A stretch of DNA of 64,000 nucleotides from Octopus sinensis. Its lineage: Eukaryota. The stretch spans positions 61,008,001 through 61,072,000 of the forward strand of contig NC_043010.1 in NCBI RefSeq assembly GCF_006345805.1. Reading direction: 5' to 3'. Made by a program: the position numbers and the translations under genes. Below are positions 13,958-57,287 of this stretch, one piece after another (position 1 is the stretch's first letter; every line of letters begins with the position of its first letter). The notes under the pieces were generated by a model. That model had not been told where the DNA came from and searched no databases. It saw only the letters and a program-made list of their open reading frames with translations.

Positions 13958-14165
13958 GTTAATCCAAACAAGAAAACACAAGAAAACACAACAACGCGAG
14001 GACGTGGAACAAATATAGTATTATTGGACGCTCAAGAAAGAAGGGAAGAAGGAGGGTTTAACGTTTCGAGCGGAGCTCTTCGTCAGACACATAGGAGAAG
14101 GAAAGATCCAGAGAAGGGAAGACAGAGGAAAAAAAATCGCCAACGGTACACACGAGGTCACATAC
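13958..14165 (-). mobile_element. Short Penelope-type terminal fragment carrying a minimal hammerhead (14056-14090)
   Basis: Minus strand: GTGT-CTGACGA-A-GAGC-TCC-GCTC-GAAAC-GTT-AAAC. The 3' end abuts (TA)n, and the same terminus recurs at 29338-29388. Confidence 0.75.
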
Positions 14166-51015: not shown

Positions 51016-51049
<34 letters not shown>

Positions 51050-51518
51050 CATCATCGTTTAACATCCGTTTTCCATGCTAGCATGGGTTGGATGGTTCGA
51101 CCAGGGTCTGGGAAACCAGGAGGCTGCACCAGGCTCCAGTCTGATCTGGCAGTGTTTCTACAGCTGGATGCCCTTCCTAATGCCAACCATTCCGTGAGTA
51201 TAGTGGGTGCTTCATACATGCCATTGGCACAGGTGACAGGGGAGGCTGGCAACGACCACGATCAGTTGATGCTTTTTACATGCCACCGGCACGAAAGCCA
51301 GTCAAGGTGGCACTGGCATCGGCCACGTTCGGATGGTGCTTTTTACATGCCACTGGCACAGGAGCCAGAGGATGCTGGAAATGGCCACGATCGGATTGGT
51401 GTTTTTTACGTGCCACCGGCACGGAAACCAGTCAAGGTGGCACTGGCATCGGCCACGTTCGGATGGTGCTTCTTATGTGCGACCGGCACAGGTATCACAA
51501 CTACAATTTCTATTTGAT
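51050..51518 (-). mobile_element. RTE 3' end with ABAB internal array
   Basis: Same terminus and GGTGCTTTTTAC.TGCCAC units. Further copies at ~25950-26310(+), 54063-54290(-), 57290-57555(-) and 58690-59000(+). Confidence 0.85.
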
Positions 51519-51684
51519 TTATATATATATATATATATTTGAGTAGTTGAATGAATTATCTTATTAAGGATAATTCAAATTAACCGATACCTGGGTAGCA
51601 AATTCACATCAGAAAAAACACGGTTGAAGTTACGTGCCTAGGGCAGAGACTACGTGCTTCCGTGTGGAAATTTGTGTGTTTAAA

Positions 51685-51831
51685 GAAAGAATGGAGCTGA
51701 ACGACGAATTAACAAAATTCCTTTATTTTCGACATATGTTTCGAAGGTTGCATATTAGGAATATGCAGCCTTAGAAATATATGTCGAAAATAAAGGAATT
51801 TTGTTAATTCGTCGTTCAGCTCCATTCTTTC
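51685..51831. repeat. Near-perfect 147-bp palindrome centred on a hammerhead stem II
   Basis: GAAAGAATGGAGCTGAACGACG...GACATATGTTTCGAAGGTTGCATATT-AGG-AATATGCAGCCTTAGAAATATATGTC...CGTCGTTCAGCTCCATTCTTTC. Confidence 0.9.
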
Positions 51832-52369
51832 ATATATTTATATTTTTAAAATATATATATATATGTATATATGGTTATATATATATATATGTTTATATAT
51901 ATAGTTGTGTGTATATGTATATTCCTACATAATGAATGCACGCACACACACATGAATATATGTGTGTGTGTGTGTGTGTATAGTACCCAGTATACTCTGT
52001 GATGCGTATGGTGAGAGGAAGGACATCCAGCCGTAGAAAACAGACCCAAAATGACATGTAGCAGAGACTGTCTCCAAACACACCGATTCCCTGTAAGAAC
52101 TGAATGAGATCATAATGACCCAACCAAATATGTGCCAGCACGGGAAGCTGATGTAGCATAATGAGCATCACACACACACACACACGTGTTTGTAGATATT
52201 TTCGATTATGTAATTATAAGAATATATTTAATATATAACTTAGGTTTTGTCCATTATTGGCCCCAGGCAATGCATACCTTAATAGTACTGCCTGCAATAA
52301 TCTTTTGAGTCAAGTTTTAGAACACCAAAGCCCACAGAAATAAGATGTCACTGTTCACCAAAATGTATG

Positions 52370-53830: not shown

Positions 53831-54733
53831 CCAAAAGGATGTGAACTTTGGAAGAGGGAGCGAGGGATATGGAGTATTGTTTTAAGTTTCTGAAAAGGTG
53901 TTTGCAAGCAATGGCCAAGGGGCAGTGAGTACTTGGACATGTCCTGTAAAACAGGAAATCATTCCTCAAAGAATTACAAACTTTTACTCAATCCAGCAAA
54001 CCTTCAAGAACATAGGGGAGAGGAACAGTGATGGTAAGGGTATGTGTGCACATGCCTCATGTTCATCATCATCATCATCGTTTAACGTCCGCTTTCCATG
54101 CTGGCATGGGTTGGACGGTTCGACCGGGGTCTGGGAAGCCAGGAGGCTGCACCAGACTCCAGTCTGATCTGGCAGAGTTTCTACAGCTGGATGCCCTTCC
54201 TAACGCCAACCACTCCGCGAGTGTAGTGGGTGCTTTTTACGTGCCACCTGCACAGGTGCCAGGGGAGTCCGGCATCGGTCACAATCGGTTGTATATGTGG
54301 AGGATCAATGGCCCAGTAGTGAGGGTAGTGGACTTGCAGTTGTAGGATCGCAATTTCAATTCCCAGACCAAGCATTGTGAGTGTTTATTGAGCAAAAACA
54401 TCTAAAGCTCCACGAGGCTCCGGCAGGGGGTGGCGGCGAACCCTGCTGTATTCTTTCACTACAACTTTCTCTCACTCTTTCTGTTGTACCTGTATTTCAA
54501 AGGGCAAGCTTTGTCACACTCTGTGTCAACGTTGAATCTCCCCAAGAACTACATTAAGGGTACATGTGTCTGTGGAGTGCTCAGGCCACTTGCACGTTAA
54601 TTTCACAAGCAGGCTATTCTGTTAATCGGATCAACTGGAACCCTCATCATCATAACCGACGGAGTGCCACGATACATGTATATGGACATATATGGTGGTG
54701 GTGGTGGTGGTGGTAGTAGTAGTAGTAGTAGTA

Positions 54734-56952: not shown

Positions 56953-57150
56953 ATACTAAGCAATAAGGGTTTAGCAACGAGTTGCCTTACCACATACCGA
57001 ATTTAGAAATAGCAGTCAAAGGGTTATAGCTATTTCTTCTACTAAAAAGTAGAAGAAATAGTAGAAGAAATAGCTATAACCCTTTGACTGCTATTTCTAA
57101 ATTCGGTATGTGGTAAGGCAACTCGTTGCTAAACCCTTATTGCTTAGTAT
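56953..57150. repeat. Perfect 92-bp inverted repeat with 14-bp spacer, inside a (TA)n-flanked insert
   Basis: 56953-57044 is the reverse complement of 57059-57150. Confidence 0.92.
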
Positions 57151-57254
57151 TACTTAAATTTTCCTCGAATGAGGCTTTTACATGCCGAAGACTACTTGGT
57201 GTAATTGATAATTTTTCCAAATTAATTAATTTCACCCTTCATTATTACGGATAA

Positions 57255-57287
<33 letters not shown>

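What the first reader, a model, noticed from the sequence alone, without database searches (positions are those of the whole stretch)
51685..51831. Palindrome whose axis is a ribozyme stem II: footprint of snap-back priming
Seen: a 147-bp near-perfect palindrome. Each strand reads hairpin (AAGGYTGCATATT..AATATGCARCCTT), then GAAA(C/T)-ATAT-GTC, then tail. That is stem II, GAAAC, palindromic stem III (ACAUAUGU) and a GUC triplet, with the CUGANGA half replaced by an inverted copy of the 3' tail. The few mismatches lie only in or next to the central hairpin. Known: Penelope-like insertions often have an inverted terminal segment at the 5' end. Inference: the cDNA folded back on stem II and self-primed second-strand synthesis, so the ribozyme fold itself may template the inversion.
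Basis: partly seen in the sequence, partly recalled or inferred. Interest (0 to 1): 0.75.

Follow-up and report, generated by a model that had tools for sequence, protein, structure and literature searches.

The report
Back-to-back stub of a Penelope retrotransposon
This palindrome is the centre of a short back-to-back insertion of a common Penelope-type jumping gene; across 87 such insertions the join falls anywhere along the element's end, likely because two separately started DNA copies are stitched together, not because the ribozyme's stem folds one copy back.

Summary
The 147-bp palindrome is real, but it is the core of a 314-bp insertion (51538-51851) in a (TA)n run. It comes from a Penelope-like retrotransposon family with over a thousand exact-match arms in this 2.7-Gb genome. 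Relatives carry the missing CTGATGA half (103 of 156 loci), and a long copy encodes RT plus GIY-YIG, so it is not a MITE. The central hairpin is not stem II: the true 5' strand is absent, and the left strand is an inverted copy of the 3' strand, joined at a 3-nt microhomology found once in the genome. In 87 simple inversions one arm always ends at the tail and the other at the pLTR end. Arms stop no more often in stem II than beside it, and in 51 of 87 the tail arm is the shorter, which fold-back of one cDNA cannot give without a later deletion. Best reading: two target-primed cDNAs joined head-to-head. The scan noted this two-arm architecture before on other DNA.

The parts
51510..51537 (.). 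Left (TA)n target run
   Evidence: Sequence; 96 of 103 tail ends in the family sample have (TA)4+ within 40 nt
51538..51684 (-). Tail of the Penelope-like element (the ~150 nt that follow the pLTR and precede the ORF in a long copy); outer end is the family's fixed tail end
   Evidence: Aligns to long copy L102 up to +207; in L102 the same segment lies just before the ORF; nearest tails are of the same subfamily as the arms
51684..51685 (-). 18-nt deletion of the AT-rich segment (+46..+63) in the tail arm; fixes the left edge of the 147-bp palindrome
   Evidence: Spacer 10 nt here against 22-31 nt in 68 of 69 other arms, one 55 nt
51685..51756 (-). Tail arm, pLTR part (-26..+45): 3' strand of stem II, GAAAC, palindromic stem III, GTC cleavage triplet, 3' strand of stem I, AATAAA; one substitution at 51748
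51754..51762 (.). Inversion junction: 3-nt microhomology ATT (51754-56) shared by both arms, then AGG and AAT; the loop belongs to the arm without the tail
   Evidence: tail arm ends at -26, other arm starts at -32, overlap 3; a 19-nt pattern over this joint matches once in the genome
51754..51851 (+). Inverted pLTR-ended arm (-32..about +65): same ribozyme 3' half, substitutions at 51773 and 51778, ends in the AT-rich segment after CTTTC
   Evidence: both substitutions are rare in the family
51852..51905 (.). Right (TA)n-rich target run; no target-site duplication can be read in the microsatellite
   Evidence: Sequence; 108 of 115 pLTR-type ends have (TA)4+ within 40 nt

Best explanation
The locus is a 5'-truncated, two-armed insertion of an RT/GIY-YIG Penelope-like element in a (TA)n run, likely made by two cDNAs primed from opposite target strands, one starting at the tail end and one at the pLTR end, whose 3' ends were likely joined at the 3-nt microhomology ATT/AAT. 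Shown: family, arm extents, junction, target, and the family-wide statistics. Inferred: the GIY-YIG domain nicks both strands of the (TA)n target; each nick primes reverse transcription of element RNA; both products are antisense, so joining their 3' ends gives a head-to-head repeat; here they stopped at -26 and -32, annealed over three bases and each primed fill-in on the other. The ribozyme has no special role at this locus; in the family its palindromes and stems would act only as ready microhomologies. The copy is a dead fragment: neither arm can form a hammerhead alone.
For: All 87 simple inversions pair one tail-ended with one pLTR-ended arm and no tail/tail junction appears among the 156 loci. 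The tail arm is shorter in 51, longer in 29, equal in 7; where both arms reach +25 or further upstream the split is 24 to 28 (p = 0.68); in 26 the tail arm does not overlap the other arm at all. pLTR-ended arms occur alone (12 of 24 loci without a junction), reach 3 kb (L103), and exceed 300 nt beside a shorter tail arm in 7 cases, so they are first-strand products. Either arm runs on its own to the pile-up at -161..-144 (13 pLTR-arm, 10 tail-arm, 7 both), next to a TATAA and CTCATT block seen in 28 arms, a likely RNA 5' end. Microhomology of 3 nt or more at 37 of 69 insertion-free junctions against 5.5% by chance. Zero-loop palindromic joints recur (17 loci; 6 loci), easier for two molecules than for a hairpin. 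Native-stem joints occur in both polarities (tail arm keeps the loop in 6, the other arm in 3). The second subfamily gave the same picture as the first. In vitro the anole Poseidon protein nicks and extends both strands, prefers AT-rich DNA, starts at two RNA sites that bracket the tail and is modelled as a dimer (PMC11167929, parts 1-2 of 4 read).
Against: Near-symmetric junctions exceed independence (16 within 10 nt against 7.0, p = 0.0007), in the first subfamily (12 against 3.4) though not the second (4 against 3.6); fold-back predicts this too. The arms share subfamily variants (8% mismatch at polymorphic sites against 37% between insertions), as fold-back requires, so a two-cDNA model needs one RNA or one source locus. 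This locus has a 3-nt loop that a pLTR-primed cDNA could fold on, and a rare deletion exactly at the pLTR-end site that could be a second joint. PMC11167929 saw no difference in start site between the two strands, which does not explain the strict tail/pLTR pairing. Breakpoints are BLAST ends against natural copies (a few nt of error), overlaps may hide mismatches while the null is exact, and the sample needed an exact anchor at -7..+26 in one arm (100 of 426 and 100 of 799 hits, first in contig order).
Confidence: 0.6

Rival explanations
1. Dual priming plus fold-back: the pLTR-primed cDNA folded on the 3-bp, 3-nt-loop micro-hairpin, copied itself to CTTTC, and was then joined to a short tail-primed cDNA; the 18-nt deletion is that second joint.
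For: The loop lies on the right strand for this; the deletion sits at the pLTR-end site and is seen in 0 of 69 other arms; arms share variants and near-symmetric joints are in excess.
Against: Only a 3-bp stem; not ribozyme pairing; does not fit zero-loop joints or asymmetries of 800-900 nt; the tail is of the same subfamily, so no sign of a chimera.
Confidence: 0.22
2. Single-primer self-priming: one tail-primed cDNA or an antisense RNA (PMC3846280) folded back, guided by stem II, and primed the second arm; asymmetry came from later loss at the centre.
For: Self-priming is the published reading of palindromic Penelope junctions (PMC3846280, passages). Both ends in stem II in 9 of 87 against 3.05. 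Native stem II joints with the tail arm keeping the loop exist (L119, L120).
Against: Needs the tail arm to be the longer: false here and in 51 of 87. True 5' strand of stem II absent here. No rise in stopping rate in stem II. Native stem II joint at only 3 loci, one in the opposite polarity. No symmetric joint at a tail palindrome (0 matches; one subfamily's letters only) and no tail/tail copy.
Confidence: 0.08
3. A one-armed insertion was turned into an inverted duplication later, by replication-fork template switching or hairpin repair.
For: Such events use short inverted repeats (own knowledge; PMC10766183 and PMC4689423 seen as search listings only); arms share variants.
Against: Would not respect element ends, yet one arm always stops at the pLTR end and the other at the tail end, both against (TA)n, with no flank duplicated; 87 of 156 loci have the form.
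Confidence: 0.06
4. A MITE or hairpin element with fixed ends, or an assembly artefact.
For: Long terminal inverted repeat and AT-rich target.
Against: Centre unique and variable across copies; relatives carry CTGATGA and an RT/GIY-YIG ORF; the arms differ by three substitutions and the tail arm has a deletion, unlike a fold-back read. The junction was not checked in reads.
Confidence: 0.03

Closest known systems
EN+ Penelope-like elements with inverted 5'-truncated pLTR and optional tail (Adineta vaga Pen2a etc., PMC3846280; overview in PMC8557442; passages read)
   Same: Direct/inverted pLTR arrangement, tail on one end only, palindromes at the inverted junction, TATA and Inr-like motifs about 20 nt apart in the pLTR, Asn-rich stretch between RT and EN, AT-rich target.
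   Different: Tail is about 150 nt rather than 30-40; most copies are ORF-less stubs; junction polarity does not fit the self-priming model proposed there.
Poseidon element PAc of Anolis carolinensis (PMC11167929; parts 1-2 of 4 read)
   Same: RT then C-terminal GIY-YIG; hammerhead in the pLTR; two fixed 3' ends bracketing a tail; AT-rich target.
   Different: There the ORF starts inside stem II and the tail lies in the ORF; here the ORF starts after the tail. The parts read do not treat how inverted copies form.
Minimal type I hammerheads of metazoan PLEs (PMC4209133; passages read)
   Same: Type I order, long helix II, short palindromic helix III suited to a dimer, pairs of motifs on opposite strands 100-700 bp apart.
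   Different: Stem II region is about 54 nt with an inner hairpin; the window holds only two 3' halves.
LINE-1 twin priming (recalled, no call)
   Same: Two target strands prime two cDNAs that are joined at a microhomology, giving an inversion.
   Different: In L1 the two pieces come from non-overlapping parts of one RNA; here 61 of 87 pairs are not of the non-overlapping kind and both starts are fixed sites.

Membership tests
EN+ Penelope-like element (Penelope/Poseidon type) | ORF with RT followed by C-terminal GIY-YIG endonuclease | tested here: met
   Long copy L102: 458-aa frame with YRDD and 332-aa frame; RVT_1 E 2.4e-4 and GIY-YIG E 5.8e-4, both under Pfam's cut-off (whole frames gave nothing relevant); both frames match one 806-aa protein P0001 in order. 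The copy is broken by a frameshift.
EN+ Penelope-like element (Penelope/Poseidon type) | pLTRs in tandem or inverted arrangement with an optional tail | tested here: met
   L102 has pLTR end plus tail before the ORF and after it, and an inverted piece at the 5' end; 87 tail/pLTR inversions.
EN+ Penelope-like element (Penelope/Poseidon type) | RT groups with Penelope/Poseidon in a tree | not tested
   No named reference proteins in hand; clade name rests on domain order and hammerhead only.
Type I hammerhead ribozyme (family copies) | CUGANGA and GAAA core, UH triplet, three helices in type I order | tested here: met
Rfam finds no hammerhead in the window or in L176.
Type I hammerhead ribozyme (family copies) | Self-cleavage | not testable with these tools
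   Needs an assay, probably as a dimer or with protein.
Type I hammerhead ribozyme (window copy) | 5' half (stem I 5' strand, CUGANGA, stem II 5' strand) present | tested here: not met
   Arms start at -26 and -32; CTGATGA lies at -73 and stem II starts at -66.
MITE | Fixed internal sequence and ends, no link to an RT element | tested here: not met
   Centres vary from -995 to +183; this centre is unique; continuous with an RT ORF.
Stem II-templated snap-back product | Joint uses native stem II partners and the tail arm keeps the loop | tested here: not met
   Joint at -26/-32 by ATT, loop on the tail-less arm; native joint would be -66/-12 as in L119 and L120.
Non-LTR retrozyme | Tandem non-coding units each with a hammerhead | tested here: not met
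   Window copy is single and inverted; only isolated tandems in the sample (L051).

The most novel reading that the evidence does not exclude
Penelope elements integrate by coupled two-strand priming: one enzyme complex starts one cDNA at the tail end and a second at the pLTR end on opposite target strands and splices their 3' ends, so the family's hallmark inverted repeats are not self-priming products; the hammerhead's own palindromes, above all the hexamer at the base of stem II and stem III, are recurrent splice points, possibly because a ribozyme dimer or a pause at stem II brings the two cDNA ends together.
Probability: 0.4. Interest if true: 0.65.

Novelty: new member of a known kind. 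Interest (0 to 1): 0.38.

Why it matters
The locus itself is an ordinary dead fragment. The family around it is useful: reviews call the origin of Penelope's tandem and inverted structures undefined (PMC8557442, passages), and the printed explanation is self-priming (PMC3846280). A polarity count on 87 young insertions contradicts plain self-priming and fits the two start sites and two-strand activity seen in vitro (PMC11167929), which makes the question testable with an existing assay. My searches showed no paper that states the two-cDNA model or this test; they cover only the open library, and supplements were not opened.

Tried and rejected
Rfam at gathering score on the window: 0; by E-value on a complete copy: no hammerhead. 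Pfam on whole frames, PDB sequence search: nothing useful. ESM Atlas was unreachable. A gapped genome pattern for whole inversions could not be run, so inversions were read from fetched loci. Recurrence of this exact joint: 1 match, itself. Symmetric joint at the tail palindrome: 0. Stem III joint: 0 with one subfamily's letters but 6 with wider letters, so my first idea that stem III is avoided was dropped. Of 39 rows, 15 were read as loci plus one more; 3 are native stem II joints; the other 23 rows print letters like ordinary arms and were not read in context. Idea that the tail came from another subfamily: not supported (one allele column there was faulty and ignored). Idea that mutations cluster at palindrome centres: p = 0.10. 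Arm differences at +52 and +54 are an artefact of the arm running into (TA)n. Sequencing runs: no RNA holder listed; the junction and the empty site were not checked in reads, so both stay open. Genome search with the second palindrome returned nothing, not even itself, and shows nothing. Loci left out of the 87: 19 with complex junctions and 50 with no junction within 40 nt; the 27 loci and all junction-pattern loci were kept out of the statistics because they were selected on the junction region.

Full report
Observation. The stretch 51685-51831 is a 147-bp palindrome with three arm differences and a 3-nt centre, far beyond shuffles. It is the middle of a longer insertion: the left arm continues to 51538 and the right arm to about 51851, each ending against (TA)n. 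The left edge of the perfect part is an 18-nt deletion in the left arm, seen in 0 of 69 other arms.

Family. The arm is a young repeat: 1,396 first-look candidates, 426 exact hits for one anchor and 799 for a second subfamily's anchor. Relatives read stem I 5' strand, CTGATGA, a stem II region of about 54 nt, GAAAC, ATAT, GTC, stem I 3' strand. The structure pairs in 96.8% of cells with one compensatory change in stem II, and 103 of 156 loci keep the full core. A long copy, L102, continues upstream into an RT frame and a GIY-YIG frame and carries the same pLTR end and tail in front of its ORF. This is an endonuclease-bearing Penelope-like element; the clade was not tested by a tree. I number positions from the base after the GTC triplet: CTGATGA at -73, stem II -66 to -13, pLTR-type end near +46 to +75, tail end near +207.

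The window's joint. The tail arm spans +207 to -26 and the inverted arm -32 to about +65, sharing three bases. Both ends lie in the 3' strand of stem II; the 5' strand is missing, so the hairpin is the inversion itself, not the ribozyme helix. The joint occurs once in the genome. The three loop bases belong to the arm without the tail. Fold-back of a cDNA that began at the tail would leave them on the tail arm, and a cDNA that began at the pLTR end holds no tail to copy (inference from geometry).

Family test. I fetched all 100 listed hits of each anchor search (77 and 79 loci). They hold 44 and 43 simple inversions; 19 complex and 50 junction-less loci were set aside. Every simple inversion has one tail-ended and one pLTR-ended arm; no tail/tail junction was listed. 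The tail arm is shorter in 51, longer in 29, equal in 7; among 59 where both arms reach +25 or further upstream the split is 24 to 28; in 26 the arms do not overlap. Arms stop in stem II at 0.0053 per nt, in the next 54 nt at 0.0071, and at -161 to -144 at 0.063, beside a TATAA and CTCATT block that is likely the promoter and RNA start. Either arm can run there alone (13, 10, and 7 both). Junctions are rich in microhomology (37 of 69 with 3 nt or more against 5.5%).

Both ends fall in stem II in 9 of 87 junctions against 3.05 by permutation, more than in neighbouring bins (5 against 3.0; 12 against 7.8); stem II is also the bin richest in self-complementary 5-mers (12 against 2 and 4). Genome-wide patterns found recurrent joints at ribozyme features: the hexamer palindrome at the base of stem II (17 loci), stem III (6), the inner hairpin (5, plus L228) and native stem II pairing (3). 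At the nine hairpin-type joints the tail arm keeps the loop in 6 and the other arm in 3. Near-symmetric joints are in excess overall (16 against 7.0) and arms share subfamily variants. So fold-back may make a minority of joints, and the ribozyme's complementarity does shape where joints form, but as microhomology, in both polarities, and not at this locus.

Mechanism. Most likely (0.6) two antisense cDNAs, primed from opposite strands of a nicked (TA)n target at the tail end and the pLTR end, were joined by their 3' ends. This agrees with in vitro work on the anole element, which nicks and extends both strands, favours AT-rich DNA and starts at two sites bracketing the tail (PMC11167929, parts 1-2 of 4); that paper found no strand difference in start site, so the strict tail/pLTR pairing is unexplained. 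The main rival (0.22) keeps dual priming but lets the pLTR-primed cDNA fold on the 3-bp micro-hairpin, with the rare deletion as a second joint. Single-primer self-priming, proposed in print for such palindromes (PMC3846280, passages), needs a later deletion in most copies (0.08).

Limits. Breakpoints are BLAST ends against natural copies; samples are the first hits in contig order and need an exact anchor; pattern counts cover only letters close to the pattern; no reads were laid; no ribozyme or RT activity was tested. Papers: PMC8557442, PMC3846280, PMC4209133 and bioRxiv 10.64898/2026.07.22.740005 were seen as passages, PMC11167929 in half, the rest as search listings; no supplements were opened and they may bear on the novelty claim.

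Verdict. A new member of a known kind, with an ordinary locus and a modestly interesting family-level result against plain self-priming. Earlier notes of this scan report the same two-arm form elsewhere in this genome; I formed my reading before opening them.

Noticed in passing
window 56953-57257: A second, unrelated 198-bp palindrome between (TA)n runs with a one-sided extension of about 105 nt: same two-arm form. Related sequence at 68-82% in L007 (also inverted, other joint), L241 and L104. Probably another Penelope-type family.
   Followed up: partly
window about 14060-14086, minus strand: A compact hammerhead-like core (CTGA-GA, short stem, GAAA) found by a simple pattern; may be chance or another Penelope end.
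   Followed up: no
L069 1198-1440 and 2444-2522: An insertion with several successive short inversions at the same points (-154 and -83/-89), present twice 1.2 kb apart.
   Followed up: no
L051 1237-2191: Two direct tandem units of 495 bp, each pLTR plus tail with a hammerhead, retrozyme-like.
   Followed up: no
L102 1700-2400 (minus strand): Asparagine-rich stretches between RT and endonuclease, like the N-rich inserts described in PMC3846280.
   Followed up: no
L137 1357-1556: Short tandem re-copies of the -7..-34 segment next to an inner-hairpin joint, suggesting repeated re-priming at stem II.
   Followed up: no
window 51048-51500 and 54071-54291: Copies of another abundant interspersed repeat with internal 60-70 nt sub-repeats flank the region.
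   Followed up: no
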